Made by a program: the position numbers and the translations under genes. Shown in pieces: positions 5,102 through 37,135 of a DNA stretch of 64,000 nt (positions are counted from its first letter, which is position 1; each line of letters starts with the position of its first letter). This DNA comes from Escherichia coli. GTDB taxonomy: Bacteria > Pseudomonadota > Gammaproteobacteria > Enterobacterales > Enterobacteriaceae. Location: assembly GCF_003019035.1 (NCBI RefSeq), contig NZ_CP027447.1. One strand, 5' to 3'. Under the pieces are notes generated by a model, which had not been told where the DNA came from, ran no database searches, and saw only the letters and a program-made list of their open reading frames with translations.

Positions 5102-6097
5102 GTGACCGTGAGAGCACTACTGACCCCTGAAATTGCCCCGCGTATGGGGATCGTATTGTTCAGACCAGGTTCAGAGCTGATGCCCCTGTTTATGCAGGGG
5201 CGTGTCCTGCTGGAGCCTGAGCCGGAACGTTATTCATCTTTCGCCAGTGGTGCCGTTCCGGCGGCATCACAACCGCTGGCGGATGATCCTGCCGTTCGGG
5301 CCGTGTTCCGCAATGAGGCAGTGATCCGTCGTGCTGGTGGCGTGGAATGTCTTGAAAGCTGGTTACTTCGTGAAAAAGGCTGCCAGTGGCCTCATTCCGA
5401 CTGGCACAGCGAGAACATGACCACAATGCGACACGCTCCGGGCGCAATCCGTCTGTGCTGGCACTGCGATAACCAGCTGCGCGATCAGTTCACGGAACGG
5501 CTGGAATCAATGGCAACGGATAACTGTGCCCGCTGGGTGTTGTCTGTTGTGCGTCGGGATCTTGGTTTTGATGACAGTCACGTTGTGACAATGCCGGAAC
5601 TGTGCTGGTGGCTGGTTCGTAATGATCTGGCGGATGCCTTACCGGAAAGCGCAGCCCGTAAGGCACTGAGATTACCGAAGCCTGTTGTGCAGGCGGTCAC
5701 CCGGGAAAGTGACCTTGTACCTTCGGTTCCTGCCACCAGCATTATCCAGGATAAAGCGAAAAAGGTGCTGGCGCTGAAAGTGGATCCGGAGTCGCCGGAG
5801 TCTTTTATGTTACGCCCAAAACGCCGCCGCTGGGTTAATGAAAAGTACACGCGCTGGGTTAAGACACAGCCGTGTGCATGTTGTGGAAAGCCTGCTGATG
5901 ATCCCCACCACCTGATAGGTCACGGTCAGGGTGGAATGGGTACAAAAGCGCATGACCTCTTTGTGTTGCCTTTGTGCAGAAAGCATCACGACGAGCTGCA
6001 TGCGGATACCGTGGCATTTGAAGAGAAGTATGGCTCCCAGCTGGAGCTGATATTTCGTTTTATCGATCGTGCACTGGCAATTGGCGTGCTGGCCTGA
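5102..6097 (+). CDS. Phage protein, DUF968-like (zinc-binding C-terminus)
   Basis: 331 aa; C-terminal CxxC...HH cluster (CACCGKPADDPHHLIGHG ... CRKHHDELH) typical of the lambdoid DUF968 family. Confidence 0.5.
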   Translation: MTVRALLTPEIAPRMGIVLFRPGSELMPLFMQGRVLLEPEPERYSSFASGAVPAASQPLADDPAVRAVFRNEAVIRRAGGVECLESWLLREKGCQWPHSDWHSENMTTMRHAPGAIRLCWHCDNQLRDQFTERLESMATDNCARWVLSVVRRDLGFDDSHVVTMPELCWWLVRNDLADALPESAARKALRLPKPVVQAVTRESDLVPSVPATSIIQDKAKKVLALKVDPESPESFMLRPKRRRWVNEKYTRWVKTQPCACCGKPADDPHHLIGHGQGGMGTKAHDLFVLPLCRKHHDELHADTVAFEEKYGSQLELIFRFIDRALAIGVLA

Positions 6098-6114
6098 TTT
6101 TGTGGAGAAAGTTG

Positions 6115-6456
6115 ATGCGTGATATGTATGAAGTATTGGACCGCTGGGGTGCATGGGCTGCAGCAGATAACAGTGGTGTGGACTGGCAGCCTGTTGCTGC
6201 AGGGTTTAAAGGTTTACTACCTCATGGAAAGAAAACACGCCAACAATGCGATGATGATGAAGGAATCATGATTGACAGCTGTGTTGCGCGATTGCGGAAA
6301 TATAAGCCCGAAGAGTATGAGTTGGTTATTGCTCATTTTGTTATCGGCATCTCACTAAGAACTATTGCAAAGAAGCAGAAGTGTTCTGATGGGACAATAA
6401 GAAAAGAGTTGCAAACAGCTCTTGGTTTTCTGGATGGTGTGCTTTCAATGTTGTAA
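6115..6456 (+). CDS. Late-gene antiterminator Q-like protein
   Basis: ~113 aa; last early gene before the late region; DRWGAW-containing N-terminus resembles small Q-type antiterminators (recalled). Confidence 0.5.
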   Translation: MRDMYEVLDRWGAWAAADNSGVDWQPVAAGFKGLLPHGKKTRQQCDDDEGIMIDSCVARLRKYKPEEYELVIAHFVIGISLRTIAKKQKCSDGTIRKELQTALGFLDGVLSML

Positions 6457-6460
6457 TATT

Positions 6461-6486
6461 AGGGGGAATTACCCCCCTTTTTTTCT
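6461..6486 (+). terminator. Rho-independent terminator after the Q-like gene
   Basis: GGGGG-AATTA-CCCCC hairpin followed by a run of 8 T; overlaps the last codons of the convergent membrane-protein gene. Confidence 0.6.
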
Positions 6487-7017
6487 CTGTTGCTTTAATA
6501 AAATTTTGATATTTTGTCTGATTATGATGAGGCAATGTAATAAAAGAAATACCGTTAGTATTGCAAGCCATACGCAAAATAAGCATGCATATAAATTAGT
6601 TGAAAGTCCAATAGTGAATTGTGCAATTGCTGTTGTGATAGAACATAATATTGATGTATTAATAAATGAGGATAAATTGTCTAAAGGTTTATAAAGTACA
6701 CTATCATTGATTTTGTCAATAGGTATACCAGTGGCAATGCTATAAATTTCCTTATATTCCTGAGTTGCAAAAACCTTATCGCGTAAATTTATTATGACAA
6801 AGGTATGCAGGCTCAATAAAAATGAGCCCACGGAAATAAAACCGGAGAAGAGATAGCCTCGTAAGTTTTTATGATAAAAATCAAAAAAGTTAACACTTAC
6901 TTTAGGTGTGTTTCTGTACAATAGGTAAAGTGCAAGCAATGCCAGGATCGAGAATGCAAGCAGTGTAAGGTACTGATACCTCAATCTTTTATTTATTAGC
7001 CATTCATATAAAGGCAT
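6469..7017 (-). CDS. Small integral membrane protein with four predicted helices, downstream gene of the two-gene moron
   Basis: 182 aa; hydrophobic segments at about residues 16-34, 45-68, 117-137 and 142-165; basic C-terminus (QQRKKGG); translationally coupled to the 308-aa gene. Confidence 0.55.
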   Translation of the reverse strand: MPLYEWLINKRLRYQYLTLLAFSILALLALYLLYRNTPKVSVNFFDFYHKNLRGYLFSGFISVGSFLLSLHTFVIINLRDKVFATQEYKEIYSIATGIPIDKINDSVLYKPLDNLSSFINTSILCSITTAIAQFTIGLSTNLYACLFCVWLAILTVFLLLHCLIIIRQNIKILLKQQRKKGG

Positions 7018-7930
7018 TTTTATTCGTCCCGTTCAGCATTTCTTCTTTTATCATATCAAAAACAGGGTTTGTTGTATAATTATCGTTTGTCAATCCATTG
7101 ACTTTATCGGCAATTATATCGAAATCGTATGTTTCAAAAAAAACAGGGCAGTTCATAAAATCAATGGTTTTTTCTATTCCTGCATGGTTTACTGCAATAA
7201 CCTGTGCTTTAGTAACTCCACTCATAGAATTATAAATATTTGAAAGATTCTGAGATAGTTGTTGCACTTTTGTTCTGTCGCTAGAATTAAAATTCATATC
7301 TATTGTGGTGGTGTTAACAAATTGTTCAAGCGCAGTCATTGGTCCACCTTTAAAATCTATATAATTAAATTTAAAGCTTGTGCTTTTAATCTCTTTGAAT
7401 TGACATAAAACACTCTGAATGTTGTTTTTATTTGTCATAAGGCTGAAAGTCAGTCTTTCTTTGTATTTTTTATTTATTGCAGTTACTTCTTTTTGTTTTG
7501 GTTTATCACCAAGTTTTTTTATTTCTTCTTTATTTTGATTTCTGATAAATTCATTACTTATTGTTTCTAAATGAGAAAAGAGAGTGTTCAGACTGCATGA
7601 ACCGTGGTGATACATATAGAGACCAGAAAGATTAGATTTTTTAATTAAGAAAAAGTTGAAATTAGCAAGTTTGTCACTTCCTTGAAGATCTTCAATTTTA
7701 AGCTGGAATTTACCATCAACAAATTGCGACTTACAGTTCTTTTTTTGGTTTCTGAATGTGACAACTAATCCATAATAGAAATCATTCACATCCGAAATGA
7801 GAATTTTACGAGTATAGTCTGTGCGACTGTGTTCTCTGTTTGATGCGTTGATAAAAGCATTCATTACGTCAACGGTATTAATATTTTTGTTATTGTTATT
7901 TATTGTAAATCCTATGCTTCTAACTTTCAT
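7004..7930 (-). CDS. Hypothetical protein, upstream gene of a two-gene moron (candidate sensor/effector partner)
   Basis: 308 aa, Asn/Lys-rich and AT-rich coding sequence; its stop overlaps the start of the downstream membrane-protein gene by 14 nt; no recognisable catalytic motif. Confidence 0.55.
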   Translation of the reverse strand: MKVRSIGFTINNNNKNINTVDVMNAFINASNREHSRTDYTRKILISDVNDFYYGLVVTFRNQKKNCKSQFVDGKFQLKIEDLQGSDKLANFNFFLIKKSNLSGLYMYHHGSCSLNTLFSHLETISNEFIRNQNKEEIKKLGDKPKQKEVTAINKKYKERLTFSLMTNKNNIQSVLCQFKEIKSTSFKFNYIDFKGGPMTALEQFVNTTTIDMNFNSSDRTKVQQLSQNLSNIYNSMSGVTKAQVIAVNHAGIEKTIDFMNCPVFFETYDFDIIADKVNGLTNDNYTTNPVFDMIKEEMLNGTNKNAFI

Positions 7931-8548: not shown

Positions 8549-9601
8549 ATGAAAAATACTGTAAAAATAAACAGTGTTGATTTAATCAACGCTGATTGCC
8601 TGCATTTTATTCAGTCCCTGCCTGATGATTCCATTGACCTGATTGTTACCGATCCGCCTTACTTCAAGGTGAAACCTAACGGTTGGGACAATCAGTGGAA
8701 AGGGGACGAAGATTACCTTAAGTGGCTGGACCACTGTCTGGCCCAGTTCTGGCGGGTGTTAAAACCTGCCGGAAGCCTTTACCTGTTCTGTGGGCATCGC
8801 CTGGCATCTGATATTGAGATCATGATGCGTGAACGTTTCAACGTGCTTAACCATATCATCTGGGCGAAGCCGTCCGGACGTTGGAATGGGTGTAATAAAG
8901 AAAGTCTGCGCGCATATTTTCCTGCCACAGAGCGCGTTCTGTTTGCTGAACATTACCAGGGGCCATATCGCGGCAAAAGTGACGGCTATGCGGCAAAAGA
9001 AAGGGAACTCAAACAGCACATAATGGCACCGCTGATATCGTATTTCAGGGATGCTCGTGCCGAACTGGGTATAACGGCAAAACAAATTGCCGAAGCCACA
9101 GGTAAGAAAAATATGGTTTCCCACTGGTTTGGTGCCAGTCAGTGGCAGTTGCCGAATGAGGCTGACTATCGGAAGTTACAGGCACTGTTTTCCCGTATAG
9201 CGGCAGAGAAGTTTCAGGAACAACAACTGGAACAACCACACCACCAGCTGGTGGCATCTTATGATTCACTGAATCGCAAATATTCTGAATTGCTGGATGA
9301 GTTTAAATCTCTCCGGCGCTATTTCTCCGTATCAGTCTCCGTGCCTTATACCGATGTCTGGACGCATAAGCCCGTTCAGTTCTACCCGGGTAAACATCCG
9401 TGCGAGAAACCGGCGGATATGCTCCGGCAAATAATCAATGCCAGTAGTCGACCTGGTGATCTGGTTGCTGATTTCTTTATGGGATCCGGTTCCACAATAA
9501 AAGCAGCAATGGCGCTGGGGCGTCGGGCGTTAGGTGTTGAACTTGAGTCAGAGCGGTTTAATCAGACGGTGAAAGAGGTAAGTGAACTGGTGGGGAAATA
9601 A
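8549..9601 (+). CDS. DNA methyltransferase (N6-adenine/N4-cytosine, beta-class)
   Basis: 350 aa; catalytic DPPY motif (IVTDPPYF) near the N-terminus and AdoMet-binding FxGxG (DFFMGSGST) near the C-terminus. Confidence 0.85.
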   Translation: MKNTVKINSVDLINADCLHFIQSLPDDSIDLIVTDPPYFKVKPNGWDNQWKGDEDYLKWLDHCLAQFWRVLKPAGSLYLFCGHRLASDIEIMMRERFNVLNHIIWAKPSGRWNGCNKESLRAYFPATERVLFAEHYQGPYRGKSDGYAAKERELKQHIMAPLISYFRDARAELGITAKQIAEATGKKNMVSHWFGASQWQLPNEADYRKLQALFSRIAAEKFQEQQLEQPHHQLVASYDSLNRKYSELLDEFKSLRRYFSVSVSVPYTDVWTHKPVQFYPGKHPCEKPADMLRQIINASSRPGDLVADFFMGSGSTIKAAMALGRRALGVELESERFNQTVKEVSELVGK

Positions 9602-29512: not shown

Positions 29513-29953
29513 ATGAATTACATATATTCCGCGACTACAAACTCTTTCTATCCGCTGGAGATGAAAGAGGATTACACTCAAGCTGACTCATGGCCAGATG
29601 ATGCTGTTGAAGTTGATGAGCAAGTGTATATTGCGTTTTCCGGATTACCGCCGAAAGGAAAAATCCGTATCGCTGGAGAAAATGGTTTTCCTGCATGGTC
29701 TGAAATTCCACCGCCAACACATGAGGAACAGATTGCTGCAGCCGAACAGGAAAAGCAGCAACTGATTAATCAGGCCAACGATTATATGAACAGTAAACAA
29801 TGGCCTGGTAAAGCGGCTATTGGTCGTCTGAAAGGTGAGGAACTGGCGCAATATAATTTGTGGCTGGATTATCTGGACGCACTGGAACTGGTCGATACTT
29901 CCGGTGCGCCAGATATTGAATGGCCTACGCCTCCGGCAGTTCAGGCCAGATGA
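29513..29953 (+). CDS. Tail fibre assembly protein (Tfa)
   Basis: 146 aa; C-terminal ELVDTSGAPDIEWPTPP resembles the conserved Tfa C-terminus. Confidence 0.75.
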   Translation: MNYIYSATTNSFYPLEMKEDYTQADSWPDDAVEVDEQVYIAFSGLPPKGKIRIAGENGFPAWSEIPPPTHEEQIAAAEQEKQQLINQANDYMNSKQWPGKAAIGRLKGEELAQYNLWLDYLDALELVDTSGAPDIEWPTPPAVQAR

Positions 29954-30514
29954 CATCCGGCGCGGTGCTGGTATCTGTTGCCGTCACCGCGTCAATGTAA
30001 TCCAGCACGGCGTTTAGTCGGGTGGTTTCTGTTTGCGTCAGCTTCCGTCCGGCCTGCAATTTCAGTTGAATAAGACTAATGGACGCCATTGCAGCATTAA
30101 TCAGCGACTGGCGCTGTGTTTCTGCCGCTTCTACTGCAGCACCGTGCTGTGCCTCAGTATCTGTCACCCATTTTTCCCATCCATTTATCGTATGGCGTTA
30201 ACGGTGAAAGCGTGACATAACCGTCTTTGATGGCACCGATATAATCCACTGTAACGGCAGCGCCATTTTCGGTTGAGTAAACAGTCTCATGGCGATGGTC
30301 TTCTTCATGGTGCCATCCTTCCCGTAAATACTGCCACTTTCCCCGAAATGTTTTCGCCCGGGTCAATATAAGTGGAACAAGCGGGCATACTTACACCAGT
30401 ATTAATATATTCATCAGACCAACCCGTATATTCATACGTTACTGTATCATAATAAAAACAACGCATATCACCCGGTACTGTAGCCAGCCCATTTTCATCA
30501 AAAACAGGTTTCAT
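29925..30514 (-). pseudogene. Alternative tail fibre assembly gene (tfa') in the invertible segment, disrupted by two frameshifts
   Basis: Three overlapping minus-strand frames (30514..30305, 30366..30154, 30167..29925) carry the N-terminal (FDENG), middle (EDHRHETVY...YDKWMG) and C-terminal (TDTSTAPDVIWPELP) parts of a Tfa-like protein. Confidence 0.55.
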
Positions 30515-30722
30515 TATTTAGCCCTCACCAGAAAGTTAAATGCGATGTTACGTGGCCTGACGGCAATAAAATTCACACCATCACCCACTGAATTACTGGT
30601 GTAATGGTATCGAGAGAAACCCGGCTCGTGTGCTGATATTCCATCGTGATTAGCAATCGAATGGCCGGAGCCCTCTGGATAATTACCTCCAAATTGCGAT
30701 AAAGATGTTGCTGCCTGCCAGC

Positions 30723-30958
30723 TTAATAATGCTCGCCACTATCCACCCCGCACCCATCATCCCAGATACGAATGAAATCACCCCGTGCGTCAGGTAATAC
30801 CAGCGACGGAAACACTTTCGCCAGCACAGGGTAATCAGTGGCAGAAAATTTCGCTCCGTTGAACTTCAAAAACACCATACCGGACCAGCTGTTGATTACG
30901 GTATTTGGCATTGCAGCGGAGGGCCAGAAGAACGGAACTCCAATAGCCGGAGCACCTT
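30723..30958 (-). CDS. Alternative tail-fibre variable C-terminal segment (Sv'), possibly truncated
   Basis: Minus-strand frame whose N-terminus crosses the right crossover site with the same LGLGE junction residues as the plus-strand fibre gene; ends ~200 nt before tfa'. Confidence 0.45.
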
Positions 30959-30968
30959 CTCCCAAACC
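30949..30968. repeat. Invertase crossover site, right (inverted copy)
   Basis: CTTCTCCCAAACCAACGTTT, inverted repeat of the left site; ~70 bp upstream of pin. Confidence 0.7.
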
Positions 30969-31036
30969 AACGTTTATGAAAATGCAGAAATAACGAGCAA
31001 ATGGCATCATTCCTGCTTTTGTCAGGGAGATCTACC

Positions 31037-31591
31037 ATGCTTATTGGCTATGTACGTGTGTCAACAAATGACCAGAACACAGATCTACAACGTAATGCGC
31101 TGAACTGTGCAGGATGCGAGCTGATTTTTGAAGACAAGATAAGCGGTACAAAGTCCGAAAGGCCGGGACTGAAAAAACTGCTCAGGACATTATCGGCAGG
31201 TGACACTCTGGTTGTCTGGAAGCTGGATCGGCTAGGGCGTAGTATGCGGCATCTGGTCATTCTGGTTGAGGAGTTGCGCGAACGTGGCGTTAATTTTCGC
31301 AGCCTGACGGATGCTATTGATACCAGCACACCGATGGGGCGTTTTTTCTTTCATGTGATGGGTGCCCTGGCTGAAATGGAACGAGAACTGATTGTTGAAC
31401 GAACAAAAGCTGGACTGGAAGCTGCTCGCGCACAGGGACGAATTGGTGGACGTCGTCCCAAACTTACACCAGAACAATGGGCGCAGGCCGGGCGATTAAT
31501 TGCATCAGGCGTTCCTCGCCAGAAGGTGGCGATCATCTATGATGTTGGTATATCGACACTGTATAAGAAGTTTCCGGTCGGAGATAAATGA
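31037..31591 (+). CDS. pin: Site-specific DNA invertase Pin (serine recombinase, Hin/Gin/Pin family)
   Basis: ~184 aa from MLIGYVRVSTNDQ; near-identical in pattern to e14 Pin (catalytic Ser in YVRVST; C-terminal HTH). Confidence 0.9.
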   Translation: MLIGYVRVSTNDQNTDLQRNALNCAGCELIFEDKISGTKSERPGLKKLLRTLSAGDTLVVWKLDRLGRSMRHLVILVEELRERGVNFRSLTDAIDTSTPMGRFFFHVMGALAEMERELIVERTKAGLEAARAQGRIGGRRPKLTPEQWAQAGRLIASGVPRQKVAIIYDVGISTLYKKFPVGDK

Positions 31592-31629
31592 AACCGTAGC
31601 ACGTCGTATGCAAGATCGTGCTGCGGTTT
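31591..31629. repeat. Hairpin repeat copy A (AAACCGTAGCACG-n13-CGTGCTGCGGTTT)
   Basis: 13-bp inverted repeat with one mismatch, directly after the pin stop; core shared with copies at 32609..32720 and 37170..37270. Confidence 0.6.
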
Positions 31630-31648
31630 ATGCTTATCACTTAAAGAC

Positions 31649-32518
<870 letters not shown>

Positions 32519-32608
32519 CTAATCCTTTGAATTTACATAGTAAAAAAGATACTTTTCCTCATAGTGTGAGCTAATTTTATGTTTCGTTTGATGATCGGAC
32601 CGGTCTCA

Positions 32609-32720
32609 AAAACCGCAGGCACGTTGTATGCAAGAACGTGCTGTGGCTGGCTGGTGAACTTCCAATAGTGCGAATATTGAATGATTTCTATCTGTTATAG
32701 ATTTTACCGTATTTCGGCAT
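32609..32720. repeat. Repeat copy B (~110 bp) of a dispersed element
   Basis: Shares the core CCGCAGGCACGTTGTATGCAAGAACGTGCTG and the downstream GGCTGGTGAACTTCCAATAGTGCGAATATTGAATGATTTC with copy C (~70% identity by eye). Confidence 0.55.
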
Positions 32721-32981
32721 GAATGAAACTGAATATCCTCCCACCGATTCTCCATGACTTTACGCCACTGTCTCTAGGGCTGCTATGTGCCAGAGGCGGA
32801 CGTTGTTAAAATAGAAAATATCCCAACCTTGTATGAGTCGTGCAATAATTTCGAACTTTATACAAAGCTTTGGTTGTAAAGGTGTATAACCACAAGTGAC
32901 ATTAATCACATTTGTAAAGGCAAAATGCAACAAACTGAATTAGTTAATTGCGTAAATTTGAAGTTATGTTAAGGTGGTGAT

Positions 32982-33114
32982 GGTTTATGGGCAGATTTTG
33001 GGTCGCGTTTCGCGATCAGTGAAAAAAATGTCCGATAGGATTGCCTTTCAGGATCTCATGTTCCTCGCATTTCTTAAGGTTCTTGTCAAGTTTGCGTAAG
33101 AGTGCCCATAAACC
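32982..33114 (+). ncRNA. Candidate retron msr/msd non-coding RNA flanked by inverted repeats a1/a2
   Basis: 12-bp perfect inverted repeats GGTTTATGGGCA (32982..32993) and TGCCCATAAACC (33103..33114) bracket 109 nt; a G follows a1; small hairpin TCGCG-TTT-CGCGA at 33003..33015; ends 20 bp before the RT start. Confidence 0.4.
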
Positions 33115-33133
33115 CTTTTAGAGGCGATCTAAA

Positions 33134-34969
33134 GTGAAACGACTACAATCATTAAAAGAAGCAAAAACAAAACCAGACTTGGCTAAGCTATTAGGAATCA
33201 AACCTTCAGCGTTAACATACTGCCTATATGTATTAAAACCTGAAAATCAATACACACAGTTTAAGATACCAAAAAAAAATGGCGGCGAACGGATAATAAG
33301 TGCACCTAACGGAATATTAAAGACGATACAGTCATCCTTATCAAGACTGCTTCTAGATTGCTTAGACGAAATAGTTTGCATTAAGTTTCCAGACTCAGAG
33401 TTAGCAAGGCAGAAAGCAAAAAACTCAAAAATATTAAAGTTAAAATGTTCCAACTCAGAAATCAAACAACCCTCACTGTCTCATGGATTTGAAAGAAAGC
33501 GTTCAATTATTACAAATGCAATGATGCACTTGGGGAAAAAATATGTTTTTAATATAGACTTGGATAATTTTTTCGGCAGTTTTAACTTTGGTAGAGTCCG
33601 AGGTTTTTTCATAAAAAATAGAAACTTTGCACTCGATCCGGAAATCGCAACTGTAATTGCTAAAATTGCGTGCTACAACAATGAACTACCCCAAGGCAGC
33701 CCATGCTCCCCAGTAATCACTAATCTAATCACTCACTCGTTAGACATTAAACTGGCAGCGATTGCATCAAGAAACTCATCCACTTTTACAAGATATGCTG
33801 ATGATATTACATTCTCTACGAGGAAGGGGGAGTTTCCTTCTGCTATAGCAAAAAATCAAAATGGTAAATATATCGTTAGTAAGAAAATTAGGGGCGAGAT
33901 AACTCGCTCAGGTTTTATAATTAATGATGGGAAGACAAGAAATCAGTATAAAGACTCGAGGCAAGATGTAACAGGCTTAGTGGTTAATAAAAAGCCAAAC
34001 ACGAAAAAAGAATATTGGAGGCTTGTGCGTGCGCAATGTGACCATTTATTTAAACATGGTGAGTTCTTAGAGGTGATTGACGGCAAGGAAATAAAGGGGA
34101 ATGTTAATACCCTTGCAGGCAAACTTAACTTCATAGACCAAGTTGACCACTATAATAGATTGCGTCAAGGCGAAAAATTAAATCCAAAATATCACTTAAA
34201 AAAAGATGCCAATAAAAATGGCCATGCCAAAAAAAGGCGTTACTTACATAGTTCTAGAGAAAAAACGTTTAGTGAGTTTCTCTTCTATCGTTTATTTTAT
34301 GGCAATGAATTACCAACAATTCTTACGGAAGGTAAAACTGACAATATTTATCTGAAGGCAGCAATACATAAGTTAGCCTCATCATTCCCTAATTTGGCGG
34401 TCGCTGAAAGTCCAGGGCTCTCTTATAAGCCACGGACTAAATTTGTTAACTACAATGAGCGGACAAAATATTTACTTGAACTTTATGGTGGTGCTGATTA
34501 TTTAAAGGATTTTGTTATTCATTATAAACAACACTTTAATCGTTATAAGGCTCCCAAACCATCTAATCCAGTAATTATACTTGTTGATAATGATAGCGGA
34601 CCAAAAGATCTGATTAATTACGTTAGTAAAGTTGATAATATTGGTATTTTCCCCACAGGTGTTCCAGATATCCGCGCCTCTGAGTTTGTACATATTTTTT
34701 GTAATCTTTATTTAGTGCTTACCCCTCAAGTTAAGGGATATACAGGAACTGATATAGAGCATTTTTTTAAAGATGCAGATCGACTTAGACCACATAAAGG
34801 TAAGTTTTTCAATACAGTCTCTAAGCGTGATCATGATAATGATTTGAGCAAGGAATCTTTCGCAACTCATATTGTTCATGCCCACAAGCATGAAATTGAT
34901 TTTAGTGGATTTACAAGCCTGTTAGAACGGTTAGTAAAAGTCATAAATCACTTTGACACTGTTAAGTAA
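33134..34969 (+). CDS. Retron-type reverse transcriptase fused to a C-terminal Toprim-like domain
   Basis: 611 aa (GTG start). RT motifs: IPKKNGGER, NAMMH (retron NAxxH), FNIDLDNFF (A), LPQGSPCSPVITNL (B), YADD (C), VTGLVVN (retron VTG); core resembles retron Ec86 RT as recalled. C-terminus carries acidic motifs ILTEGKTD and IILVDND. Confidence 0.8.
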   Translation: MKRLQSLKEAKTKPDLAKLLGIKPSALTYCLYVLKPENQYTQFKIPKKNGGERIISAPNGILKTIQSSLSRLLLDCLDEIVCIKFPDSELARQKAKNSKILKLKCSNSEIKQPSLSHGFERKRSIITNAMMHLGKKYVFNIDLDNFFGSFNFGRVRGFFIKNRNFALDPEIATVIAKIACYNNELPQGSPCSPVITNLITHSLDIKLAAIASRNSSTFTRYADDITFSTRKGEFPSAIAKNQNGKYIVSKKIRGEITRSGFIINDGKTRNQYKDSRQDVTGLVVNKKPNTKKEYWRLVRAQCDHLFKHGEFLEVIDGKEIKGNVNTLAGKLNFIDQVDHYNRLRQGEKLNPKYHLKKDANKNGHAKKRRYLHSSREKTFSEFLFYRLFYGNELPTILTEGKTDNIYLKAAIHKLASSFPNLAVAESPGLSYKPRTKFVNYNERTKYLLELYGGADYLKDFVIHYKQHFNRYKAPKPSNPVIILVDNDSGPKDLINYVSKVDNIGIFPTGVPDIRASEFVHIFCNLYLVLTPQVKGYTGTDIEHFFKDADRLRPHKGKFFNTVSKRDHDNDLSKESFATHIVHAHKHEIDFSGFTSLLERLVKVINHFDTVK

Positions 34970-35298
34970 TATTATGATGCGCACTGATTATTCCTTATTC
35001 AGCTAAAATTTCTACTGTAGTCCCAACTTCCGTTCCTCGCTCATAACAGACATTCACTACAGTTATGGTAGAAGGTATGCATGCTGGGTGGGGAAAGTAT
35101 GAAGGAAAAGAAGACTGCTGCGCCGTTTGTTGTCACATTTATCTTCATTGGCTATGCAAGTCGTAATACAAGGTGGGACAAAACTGAGACACATAAGGCC
35201 TCGCAATGACTTGCAAGGCTTTACATGTTTTGATGTGGTGGGACGTGTGAGCGCAGTGTTGATGGGGTAATGCTTTGAATTAGAAGCGGATTCTTATA

Positions 35299-35343
35299 AT
35301 TCGTAATGCGAAGGTCGTAGGTTCGACTCCTATTATCGGCACC
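35299..35343 (+). other. Partial tRNA-Thr 3' end (thrW-like pseudo-tRNA), prophage attR core
   Basis: ATTCGTAATGCGAAGGTCGTAGGTTCGACTCCTATTATCGGCACCA matches the anticodon-stem-to-CCA portion of E. coli tRNA-Thr(CGU) as recalled; no matching 5' acceptor strand upstream. Confidence 0.75.
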
Positions 35344-35941
35344 ATTTAAATCAATAAGTTATCTCACATTTAAGTAAACTACGTTCTCCTCTTGTGCCTT
35401 TGATTTTGCTCGCGTGCGCGGTGAAATGCCTGACTGAAAGGTGAGCATATCGACGAACCATTTCGAGAGTTTCCCATCTGCTCATTTTTAAGTGCAAGCA
35501 GGAAAACACCGGACTAAACCAATCAGCTGTTCGAAAATGGCAAGCGGATTAATATGCCATGGCGGGGCAGCTTTGAGCCGCACGCATGGGGTGTGGCAAG
35601 CCTGATGGATTTTGCTGTGCCTGTGGTGGCGTGTTTGCTGGTTTGGCTGTTGGTTAAACGCGAAAGTCATAATGCCAGGGGAATACCGCAGGGTGTTCAG
35701 GTTTTGCATAAAAAAGCCCACCATTAAGGTGGGCAAAAGGAATGATTTATATTCTCTGAGAGAAACATTACATTTCTCCTTGTCACTTCTAACATAAAAA
35801 TATGGAGAAATAATGGAGCTTATATTAATTGGCGATTAGGTAACCATGTGGTTATACAAAACAATACAGTTCTTTACATTTGCCTTGTTTTATGAATACT
35901 CCTGAAGAGGTGTACAACATAATTAAACAAACAGGGTAAAT

Positions 35942-36556
35942 ATGAATATATTTGAACAAACTCCACCGAACCGCAGACGTTATGGTCTTGCTGCATTCAT
36001 TGGGCTGATTGCTGGCGTTGTTTCCGCATTTGTGAAGTGGGGGGCTGAAGTTCCATTGCCGCCACGTAGCCCGGTGGATATGTTTAATGCAGCGTGTGGT
36101 CCGGAATCATTAATCAGGGCTGCTGGGCAAATTGATTGCTCCCGTAATTTTCTCAATCCTCCGTATATTTTTCTTCGAGACTGGCTGGGGCTGACAGATC
36201 CCAATGCGGCTGTTTATACCTTTGCCGGGCATGTCTTTAACTGGGTTGGTGTTACGCACATTATCTTTTCGATAGTGTTTGCTGTCGGTTATTGTGTGGT
36301 CGCTGAAGTATTTCCAAAAATTAAACTCTGGCAGGGCTTACTGGCAGGTGCTTTAGCCCAACTTTTTGTTCATATGATTTCATTCCCTCTCATGGGACTG
36401 ACGCCACCTCTGTTTGATCTCCCGTGGTATGAGAATGTTTCTGAAATTTTTGGACATTTAGTCTGGTTCTGGTCCATTGAAATTATTCGCAGAGATTTAC
36501 GAAACAGAATTACTCATGAGCCAGACCCTGAGATCCCTTTAGGCTCAAACAGATAA
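35942..36556 (+). CDS. yagU: Inner membrane protein YagU (DUF1440)
   Basis: 204 aa, multi-helix membrane protein; recognised as the E. coli YagU sequence. Confidence 0.85.
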
Positions 36557-36805
36557 TGCATTGAATGATAAAAATGGCGCAAATACAGCGCCATTTTTAT
36601 AGGTTAAAAACATTGTTTTTAACTTTCTGATGGCAGATAGCCAGTGAGTACATCGCGCTACTTCAGGATGCTGTAGATCCGGAGAACACTATAGAGGAAG
36701 AGGCATTGTTGCTGGCAGATGGAAGAAGTTTCGGGTTTTGTTATCCCTGAAAAACGAAGCCCCGCGATTATAGCTGGCGGGGCAGTGCAATTAATTATTG
36801 CATAT

Positions 36806-37135
36806 TTATAACGGTGTCAGCCCGTATTTAGCTCTTGCACGATTGCAAGCCTCATTGACGACTCCGTTCTCACCAGACATGGCGAATTCTCTGCACGTGG
36901 AAGATCGATTTTTATATATCGTGCAGCAGGCATTTTTGCCCGGTGTTCCTGCAAGGGCAATACATCGGGGGTTTTTCTGATTGGTACCGCTCATGCATCG
37001 GTGAAAAGGGGATATTTGTTCAGTGAGCCTGGCGGGAATGGTACCGCCAGCATCGTCGGCTTCGGCCCAGTAAAAAGAGACGCGGAAAAATGCACAACAG
37101 GCACCACACGTCATGCATGGATTCAGATTGCTCAT
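36806..37135 (-). CDS. ykgJ: Cys-rich ferredoxin-like protein YkgJ
   Basis: 109 aa with CxxCxxCC and further Cys clusters; conserved neighbour of yagU and the ecp operon. Confidence 0.8.

What the first reader, a model, noticed from the sequence alone, without database searches (positions are those of the whole stretch)
33134..34969. Retron-type reverse transcriptase fused to a Toprim-like effector domain
The 611-aa protein has the full RT motif set plus the retron-specific NAxxH and VTG motifs, and resembles the retron Ec86 RT core as I recall it. The C-terminal ~220 aa carry Toprim-like acidic motifs (TEGKTD, IILVDND). RT-Toprim fusions are the architecture of retron-Eco2 (Ec67)-type anti-phage retrons, so this is probably a known type rather than a new one.
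Basis: partly seen in the sequence, partly recalled or inferred. Interest (0 to 1): 0.8.

Follow-up and report, generated by a model that had tools for sequence, protein, structure and literature searches.

The report
Ec67-family (type I-C) prophage retron
This is an intact copy of a known kind of bacterial anti-phage system, a retron whose reverse transcriptase is fused to a Toprim nuclease, together with its non-coding RNA gene on a prophage of E. coli; it is ordinary and public annotation already names it correctly.

Summary

- **Protein.** Window 33134-34969 (+) encodes a 611-aa protein that passes NCBI's curated "retron Ec67 family RNA-directed DNA polymerase/endonuclease" model (742 bits, cut-off 450). 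It fits PADLOC's RT-Toprim_I-C models as well as Ec67 does.
- **Relation to Ec67.** It aligns end to end with the solved Eco2/Ec67 protein at 44% identity. The RT YADD box, the Toprim EGxxD and DxD motifs and the metal-binding glutamate are all kept.
It lies at 32982-33114 and has 12-bp a2/a1 inverted repeats, the invariant branching-G context and an msr hairpin. A covariance model built only from distant relatives finds it as the single hit in the window (E 4e-22). Both helices covary across 29 loci.
- **Context.** The cassette is cargo at the right end of a prophage, next to a PD-T4-3 defence gene. It occurs at 99.5% identity or more in 19 of 5426 complete E. coli genomes.
- **Mechanism.** It is inferred from Eco2: msDNA cages the Toprim domain, phage nucleases destroy the msDNA, and the freed Toprim cuts tRNA.
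- **Verdict.** Known type, low interest.

The parts
32948..32975 (+). Candidate promoter of the retron transcript: -35 TTGCGT (32948-32953), 16-nt spacer, extended -10 TGnTAAGGT (TG at 32967-32968, hexamer 32970-32975). Transcription would start at about 32982, the first base of a2.
   Evidence: The TGnTAnnnT and upstream TTGC positions stay conserved in 7 divergent type I-C loci whose surrounding sequence is not conserved. The generic sigma-70 scan did not report it, because each hexamer matches only 3 of 6 consensus positions. Inference only.
32982..33114 (+). Retron non-coding RNA gene (msr-msd), 133 nt.
   Evidence: A covariance model built from 24 distant I-C ncRNAs, with the window and its close relatives left out, gives one hit in 64 kb on both strands: 32981-33115, 93.7 bits, E 4.3e-22. 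The layout is the same as in the Ec67 ncRNA, which was verified in E. coli genomes.
32982..32993 (+). Inverted repeat a2 (GGTTTATGGGCA). The predicted branching guanosine is G32994, in the invariant AGATTT context.
   Evidence: It is exactly complementary to 33103-33114. All 12 pairs show changes on both sides across 29 distinct loci, with no broken pairs. A-G-A is invariant in the alignment. The homologous residue in Ec67 is rG15, the branch point seen in the cryo-EM structure (PMC12405507).
33001..33017 (+). msr hairpin (GGTCGCG-TTT-CGCGATC).
   Evidence: 7 pairs, 5 of them with compensatory changes, 100% of cells paired in 29 loci. It corresponds to the single RNA stem-loop of the Ec67 msr.
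33030..33101 (+). Predicted msd template. It would give an msDNA of about 72 nt, starting with dT opposite A33101 and ending near 33030.
   Evidence: The ends are placed by alignment with Ec67, where reverse transcription starts at the A of the conserved GA-G-a1 junction and stops at G52:dC67. Both ends are inferred, not measured. The interior is not conserved among relatives, as is usual for msd regions.
33103..33114 (+). Inverted repeat a1 (TGCCCATAAACC), preceded by the invariant GAGT.
33134..34969 (+). RT-Toprim fusion gene, 611 aa, retron type I-C1 (Ec67 family).
33134..34168 (+). Reverse transcriptase domain (about aa 1-345): NAMMH 128-132, YADD 221-224, VTG 279-281. It carries a Lys-rich insertion of about 25 aa (aa 85-114) that Ec67 lacks.
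   Evidence: 51.5% identity to Ec67 residues 1-300. The insertion is conserved in the roughly 611-aa subclade and is predicted disordered (pLDDT below 50 for residues 97-123).
34304..34966 (+). Toprim nuclease domain (about aa 391-611). E399, G400 and D403 form the EGxxD motif; D485 and D487 form the DxD motif; E542 is kept. D540 stands where Ec67 has S513. K573 is invariant.

Best explanation
This is an intact, single-gene type I-C1 retron of the Ec67/Eco2 family, carried as cargo at the right end of a prophage. It is a distinct member, about 44% identical to Ec67.

Shown here:
- A candidate promoter, a 133-nt msr-msd non-coding RNA gene and an RT-Toprim fusion gene lie in one transcriptional direction.
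- All known catalytic residues are kept.
- The RNA helices are supported by covariation.

Inferred from the experimentally studied Eco2:
- The RT uses the 2'-OH of the branching G (G32994) to prime copying of the msd region into an msDNA of about 72 nt.
- The msDNA holds RT-Toprim subunits in an oligomer (a trimer in Eco2) in which the Toprim active sites are caged.
- Phage-encoded DNA endonucleases (DenB of T-even phages, A1 of T5-like phages) degrade the msDNA.
- The freed Toprim domain then cuts tRNA or other RNA, translation stops, and the infection aborts.
For: Family assignment:
- NF038237 scores 742 bits against a cut-off of 450.
- PADLOC PDLC02966 and PDLC02963 score 736 and 734 bits. 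Ec67 has the same two top models at 718 and 717 bits.
- The full-length match to the solved Eco2 chains gives E 8e-137. The full-length model aligns to 9lm3 and 9i2f over about 617 columns.

Active sites:
- YADD, E399/D403, D485/D487 and E542 align with the Ec67 residues whose mutation abolishes defence or RNase activity.

Toprim fold.

ncRNA:
- One covariance-model hit, E 4e-22.
- 99.8% of cells paired, against 26-47% when the partner columns are slid. 17 of 21 pairs have changes on both sides.

Selection and mobility:
- The cassette is 99.5% identical or more in 19 complete E. coli genomes, in at least three different prophage neighbourhoods.
- It sits beside another defence gene, PD-T4-3.

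Mechanism of the prototype: PMC12916289 and PMC12405507.
Against: - Nothing about function was measured here.
- The Toprim domain is only about 37% identical to that of Ec67. The linker that holds the Eco2 trimer contact (Ec67 residues 325-347) is poorly conserved (34%), carries a 4-residue insertion and is modelled with low confidence. The oligomeric state and the trigger may therefore differ.
- The metal-B ligand S513 of Ec67 is D540 here.
- In the published retron census, a relative with the same a1/a2 and msr but a different msd ('Retron Terminal 991') gave RT-DNA '0 by PAGE' when expressed from a plasmid. msDNA production by this subclade is therefore not demonstrated.
- The candidate promoter is weak by consensus.
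Confidence: 0.88

Rival explanations
1. It is the same retron, but the Toprim effector cuts DNA, as OLD, GajA and the Eco8 effector do, rather than tRNA or RNA. Alternatively it responds to a different phage trigger than Eco2 does.
Confidence: 0.1
2. It is a decaying or inactive retron remnant on a defective prophage. The sequence resembles a retron but the system no longer works.
For: A census relative made no RT-DNA visible by PAGE. One of the 19 E. coli copies is truncated (H57). The prophage end is flanked by integrase remnants.
Against: The ORF is full length, the same length as its homologues from many genera. All catalytic residues and every ncRNA pair are intact. Eighteen full-length copies are 99.5% identical or more, in different neighbourhoods.
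Confidence: 0.05
3. The C-terminal domain is an RNase H-like maturation nuclease that trims the RNA template of the msDNA (the historical view of Ec67). It would then not be the immune effector.
For: The domain is RNase-H-like/Toprim and is fused to an RT, as in retroviral RT-RNase H.
Against: For Eco2, the quadruple Toprim mutant makes normal msDNA and normal trimers but loses defence (PMC12916289).
Confidence: 0.02
4. It is not a retron at all but another defence RT (DRT/UG, Abi, or a group II intron RT) that happens to carry a nuclease domain.
For: Weak hits to group II intron RT and Drt2 models. Distant structural hits to DRT, Abi-P2 and group II RTs.
Against: Those scores are 10 to 20 times lower than the retron scores and far below their cut-offs. 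The retron-specific ncRNA with covarying a1/a2 repeats is present immediately upstream.
Confidence: 0.01

Closest known systems
Retron-Eco2 (Ec67), type I-C1; PDB 9lm3, 9i2f, 9i2g, 9s1f
   Same: Single-gene architecture: ncRNA followed by an RT-Toprim fusion. Same best PADLOC and NCBIfam models. YADD, EGxxD, DxD and the metal-B glutamate are conserved. Same ncRNA plan: a2, AGATTT with the branching G, one msr hairpin, msd, GAGT, a1. Both are carried on prophages.
   Different: 44% overall identity (RT 51%, Toprim 37%). A Lys-rich insertion of about 25 aa at residues 85-114. S513 is replaced by D540. The linker and trimer-contact region is divergent. The msd interior is unrelated and the predicted msDNA is about 72 nt rather than 67 nt. 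The gap between a1 and the start codon is 19 nt rather than 37 nt. The host is an SfV/e14-like prophage with a Mu-type tail module, with the cassette lying between the pin invertase and the att site; Ec67 sits in the P2-like hotspot next to the portal gene.
'Retron Terminal 991' and 'Terminal 1000' of the experimental retron census (PMC10849725, supplementary file 3)
   Same: Terminal 991 has the same a2 and msr hairpin sequence (GGTTTATGGGCAGATTTTGGGTCGCGTTTCGCGATCAGTGAAAAAA...) and the same a1; Terminal 1000 is nearly identical over these parts. Both therefore belong to the same subclade.
   Different: Their msd interiors differ. Terminal 991 gave no RT-DNA by PAGE in that plasmid set-up. 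Their RT sequences were not compared here.
Retron types XII (RT-TIR) and XI (RT-protease), the other fused-effector retrons of RT clade 8
   Same: The RT domain is closely related: 315-325 bits to the PADLOC models over residues of about 83-354.
   Different: Only the RT part matches. The effector is Toprim, not TIR or protease. NF042941 scores 283 bits against a cut-off of 600.
OLD-family, Gabija GajA and PARIS AriB Toprim nucleases
   Different: There is no ATPase domain. About 10-15% sequence identity. Here the domain is fused to an RT and, by analogy with Eco2, is regulated by msDNA.

Membership tests
Retron (any type) | Reverse transcriptase with the catalytic YADD box and the retron-specific NAxxH and VTG motifs | tested here: met
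   NAMMH 128-132, YADD 221-224, VTG 279-281. All are invariant in 26 homologues. The best profile hits are all retron RTs.
Retron (any type) | A non-coding RNA gene (msr-msd) next to the RT, closed by a1/a2 inverted repeats, with a conserved branching G just 3' of a2 | tested here: met
   12-bp exact repeat at 32982-32993 and 33103-33114, and G32994 within the invariant AGA. Covariation in all 12 a1/a2 pairs and in 5 of 7 msr hairpin pairs. An independent covariance model hits at E 4e-22. Caveat: the segment ends used for the alignment were chosen by maximising the repeat. The hairpin and the covariance-model test do not depend on that choice.
Retron (any type) | Production of branched RNA-linked msDNA | not testable with these tools
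   The length of about 72 nt is predicted only by homology. A relative with the same msr gave '0 by PAGE' in the census.
Retron type I-C / Ec67 family (NF038237) | Whole-protein score above the curated cut-off of the family model | tested here: met
   742.1 bits against 450, covering model positions 1-572 of 572.
Retron type I-C / Ec67 family | RT fused at its C-terminus to a Toprim domain with motif IV EGxxD and motif V DxD (Mestre et al. 2020, Table 1) | tested here: met
Retron subtype I-C1 (as opposed to I-C2) | Motif V is DxD; DxE is the I-C2 signature | tested here: met
   The motif is DND. The top PADLOC models are the same as for Ec67, the I-C1 prototype. I-C3 also has DxD and was separated only by this shared model ranking. 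No phylogenetic tree was built.
Retron type I-C / Ec67 family | [quoted passage not shown] | tested here: met
   No further co-oriented ORF of 50 aa or more lies between 34969 and the att core at about 35300. The upstream neighbour is divergent and is replaced by other genes in other genomes.
Retron type I-C / Ec67 family | msDNA-scaffolded trimer that cages the Toprim domain; activation by phage nucleases (DenB, A1); tRNA/RNA cleavage; anti-phage defence | not testable with these tools
   Known for Eco2 only. The trimer-contact region is poorly conserved here.
Retron type XII (RT-TIR, NF042941) | Whole-protein score above the cut-off, and a TIR effector domain | tested here: not met
   282.8 bits against a cut-off of 600, and only the RT part (residues 85-338) matches.

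The most novel reading that the evidence does not exclude
The large subclade of about 611-aa proteins (56-85% identical homologues in Enterobacterales, Vibrio, Aeromonas, Shewanella, Marinobacter and others) differs from Eco2 in three ways: a conserved Lys-rich finger insertion, an Asp at the metal-B position, and a divergent trimer-contact linker. One tested member made no msDNA visible by PAGE. These retrons might therefore be regulated differently from Eco2. They might make little or no msDNA until infection, as was recently proposed for type VI retrons, or assemble in a different oligomer with a different trigger or substrate.
Probability: 0.07. Interest if true: 0.5.

Novelty: already known. 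Interest (0 to 1): 0.15.

Why it matters
It matters little for discovery. The family has a curated NCBI model, PADLOC models, three cryo-EM studies and a worked-out mechanism, and this exact protein is already correctly named in public records.

The modest value is practical:
- The ncRNA gene, which genome annotation does not mark, is now placed to the nucleotide.
- The cassette is shown to move as a unit (promoter, ncRNA and RT-Toprim gene) between prophage cargo sites.
- It is a second, divergent E. coli I-C1 retron (44% identical to Ec67). It could be compared with Eco2 to learn which features of the msDNA cage and of trigger specificity are general.

Tried and rejected
- **Rfam.** An E-value-threshold search over 30000-37000 found no retron RNA family. 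It found only the IS009 sRNA and a sub-threshold CssrB hit. The ncRNA was therefore found by hand and tested with a self-built covariance model.
- **Promoter scan.** The generic sigma-70 scan found no promoter upstream of a2. A conserved extended -10 appeared only on comparison of homologous loci.
- **Pfam.** It detects RVT_1 only and gives no Toprim hit. Sequence profiles of the general Toprim families do not reach this lineage, so a fold comparison was needed.
- **Phage collection.** It holds no full-length copy of the cassette. It matches only the downstream att/integrase remnant and a partial match in phage phi458.
- **Literature.** A full-text search for the ncRNA sequence found nothing in main texts. 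Relatives turned up only in the census supplement.
- **Ec67 ncRNA.** I recalled the sequence from memory and treated it as a lead until it matched 14 E. coli genomes at 100%, directly upstream of the Ec67 RT.
- **'Catalytic lysine K562'.** One Eco2 paper quotes this residue, but it does not map onto a lysine in the Ec67 sequence I extracted, where residue 562 is Asp. The lysine that is invariant in the family alignment is K573 here, which pairs with Ec67 K546 in the pairwise alignment. I did not resolve the discrepancy.
- **Rejected readings.** A non-retron RT, types XI/XII, and a decayed remnant; see the rival explanations.

Full report
**Observation.**
An AGAGG ribosome-binding site lies 9 nt upstream. 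A pattern search finds each quoted motif once: NAMMH 128-132, YADD 221-224, VTG 279-281, TEGKTD 398-403 and VDND 484-487. The region is AT-rich (35-37% GC, against 50-59% for the prophage structural genes upstream). That is typical of horizontally acquired cargo, and it makes an 1836-nt open frame by chance very unlikely.

**What the protein is.**
- NCBIfam's curated model NF038237, "retron Ec67 family RNA-directed DNA polymerase/endonuclease", matches over its whole length at 742 bits (cut-off 450).
- PADLOC's RT-Toprim_I-C models PDLC02966 and PDLC02963 score 736 and 734 bits. Ec67 has the same two best models, at 718 and 717 bits.
- Other retron types match only the RT part. Non-retron RTs (group II intron, Drt2) score 43 and 31 bits.
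- Against the PDB sequences the best hits are the Eco2/Ec67 chains (9lm3, 9i2f; E 8e-137), followed by the RTs of Ec86, Kva2, Ec78, Ec83 and Eco8.

I extracted the native Ec67 locus from E. coli 2012C-4502 (locus L002). I found it by searching with the Ec67 ncRNA sequence recalled from memory, which proved to be a 100% match in 14 genomes directly upstream of the RT. The global alignment gives 44% identity: RT 51.5%, linker 34%, Toprim 37%. The Ec67 residues shown experimentally to be essential are YADD 199-202, E374, D378, D460, D462 and E515 (PMC12405507 and PMC12916289). They map onto identical residues Y221-D224, E399, D403, D485, D487 and E542. S513 of Ec67 is D540 here.

**Fold of the C-terminal domain.**
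- Pfam sees only RVT_1, so the Toprim claim needed a structural test.
- A full-length AlphaFold model (pLDDT 80) aligns with the Eco2 cryo-EM chains over about 617 columns (Foldseek E 3e-49).
The domain is a Toprim domain of the OLD-like kind.

- Immediately upstream, 32982-32993 (GGTTTATGGGCA) is the exact reverse complement of 33103-33114. The segment folds with the two repeats closing the structure.
- I collected 78 related loci from IMG/VR with an alignment of 26 homologues. Almost every full-length RT-Toprim locus has a perfect 11-16-bp inverted repeat of different sequence at the same place: 110-130 nt apart, ending 14-54 nt before the start codon.
- Aligning 29 distinct sequences shows a common plan: a2, the invariant A-G-A-T/A-T-T (the G is the branching guanosine, rG15 in Eco2), one hairpin, GTGA, a variable msd interior, GCG-nAA-GAGT, and a1.
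- On the RNAalifold consensus, 99.8% of cells are paired. All 12 a1/a2 pairs and 5 of 7 hairpin pairs change on both sides. Sliding the partner columns drops pairing to 26-47%.
- The segment ends had been chosen by maximising the repeat, so I made an independent test. A covariance model built from the 24 sequences whose RTs are 31-51% identical to this one in the tblastn table, with the window and its close relatives left out, gives one hit in the whole 64-kb window on either strand: 32981-33115, 93.7 bits, E 4e-22.
- By homology with Ec67, reverse transcription should start opposite A33101 and stop near 33030, giving an msDNA of about 72 nt. This is inferred.
- A conserved TTGC-N-TGnTAnnnT pattern upstream of a2 in seven divergent loci suggests an extended -10 promoter at 32948-32975. 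It would start transcription at a2. The generic scan missed it.

**Context.**
- Upstream of the retron the window holds a prophage. It has a repressor and early genes at 0.2-6 kb, a methyltransferase and lysis genes at 8.5-10.9 kb, terminase and head genes, a Mu-type contractile tail and baseplate, tail fibres, and a pin invertase at 31001-31591.
- After the invertase comes a divergently oriented GIY-YIG gene that matches the PADLOC model PD-T4-3 (E 3e-140). The retron follows.
- At about 35300-35345 there is a copy of the 3' part of a tRNA-Thr-like sequence. It matches the attP region of SfII, SfV and P22-type phages. ARAGORN finds no complete tRNA. The retron is therefore the last cargo gene before the right attachment site.
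- The cassette from promoter to stop codon occurs in 19 of 5426 complete E. coli genomes, always at 99.5% identity or more. Eighteen copies are full length.
- It has at least three neighbourhoods: beside PD-T4-3 (this window and strain EC7), beside a DUF262 gene in the same kind of prophage (strain TST3), and inside a Qin-like lambdoid prophage between a DUF977 gene and hokD (strain H6).
- The shared core is roughly 32782-35043. The exact protein is in NCBI on 192 contigs under the Ec67-family name.

**How it most likely works.**
For Eco2 the published model has five steps:
1. The RT makes a branched msDNA.
2. Three RT-Toprim subunits are tied together by their msDNAs, which form a three-way junction that cages the Toprim sites.
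3. The phage endonuclease DenB starts msDNA decay; phage A1 is implicated by escape mutations.
4. The unblocked Toprim nicks tRNA acceptor stems.
5. Translation stops (PMC12916289; PMC12405507).

The family membership, the conserved active sites and the conserved ncRNA plan make the same scheme the best explanation for this retron (confidence about 0.88 for identity, lower for details).

Some details could differ:
- The trimer-contact linker is poorly conserved and modelled with low confidence.
- A conserved Lys-rich insertion of about 25 aa (residues 85-114) sits in the RT and is absent from Ec67.
- The msd interior is unrelated to that of Ec67.
- In the retron census, 'Terminal 991' shares the a1/a2 and msr sequence and 'Terminal 1000' has a nearly identical one, but both have other msd regions. 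Terminal 991 gave RT-DNA '0 by PAGE' from a plasmid (PMC10849725 supplement).

**Comparison and novelty.**
- The locus meets every sequence-level criterion of retron type I-C, subtype I-C1: EGxxD, DxD rather than DxE, and the same best models as Ec67 (Mestre et al. 2020).
- It is a member of that family, distinct from Ec67. It belongs to a large subclade of about 611-aa proteins found in many Gammaproteobacteria.
- The family, its mechanism and this protein's annotation are already public. I therefore rate it as already known, with low interest.
- The only open point is whether the subclade-specific features change regulation.

Noticed in passing
window 31649-32422 (-) (the ORF list extends it to 32473 with a TTG start): A GIY-YIG protein matches the PADLOC single-gene defence system PD-T4-3 (E 2.7e-140) and phrog_5356, and RefSeq annotates it as 'LEM-3-like GIY-YIG domain-containing protein'. 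It lies divergently next to the retron. The two form a small defence islet at the prophage end.
   Followed up: partly
L081 (strain H6), L082 (strain TST3), L001 (strain EC7): The same retron cassette (99.5% identity or more over promoter, ncRNA and gene) sits in different prophage cargo sites. It lies beside a DUF262 gene instead of PD-T4-3 in TST3, and between a DUF977 gene and hokD in a Qin-like prophage in H6. The shared core is about window 32782-35043.
   Followed up: partly
window 35300-35345 and 35351-35509 (-): A copy of the 3' part of a tRNA-Thr-like sequence matches the attP region of SfII, SfV and P22-type phages and marks the right prophage end. It is followed by a 52-aa remnant of an integrase C-terminus. 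No complete tRNA is found in the window.
   Followed up: partly
window 6469-7930 (-): A very AT-rich insert (31-38% GC) in the prophage early/late junction holds two co-oriented ORFs. One is a 308-aa protein of phrog_2802 (unknown function). The other is a 182-aa protein that looks membrane-spanning. Neither has a PADLOC hit. It could be an uncharacterised prophage moron or defence gene pair.
   Followed up: partly
window 8549-9601 (+): A prophage-borne type II-like DNA methyltransferase (PADLOC MTase_II, E 1.6e-152) has no adjacent restriction enzyme and is probably an orphan anti-restriction methylase.
   Followed up: no
window 29500-31600: Tail-fibre and tail-fibre-assembly ORFs lie in both orientations, followed by a pin/Gin-type serine invertase (31001-31591). 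This is the usual invertible host-range segment of e14, Mu and P1-type phages.
   Followed up: no
window 34970-35941 compared with L001 22497-28607: In strain EC7 a LysR pseudogene and the paoABCD operon lie between the retron and yagU, a gap of about 6.1 kb. In the window only 973 bp separate them. This strain therefore lacks pao at this position.
   Followed up: no
L002 5990-7930 (E. coli 2012C-4502): The RefSeq CDS for the Ec67 RT starts at 5990 and so runs across the whole msr-msd gene (6001-6132). The 586-aa protein of the literature starts at 6170. The ncRNA itself is not annotated in any of the records inspected.
   Followed up: partly
PMC10849725, supplementary file 3: Census retron 'Terminal 991' has an a2, msr and a1 identical to the window's, and 'Terminal 1000' has nearly identical ones, but both have different msd interiors. 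Terminal 991 is listed as RT-DNA '0 by PAGE'.
   Followed up: partly
window 36562-36763 (+): A full-length Rfam hit to the IS009 sRNA (RF02111, 191.7 bits, gathering score 117) lies between yagU and ykgJ.
   Followed up: no
Ec67 residue numbering, L002 6170-7927: The 'catalytic lysine K562' quoted for the Eco2 Toprim in PMC12405507 falls on an Asp in the Ec67 sequence extracted here. The lysine that is invariant in the family alignment is K573 of the window protein, which pairs with Ec67 K546 in the pairwise alignment.
   Followed up: no
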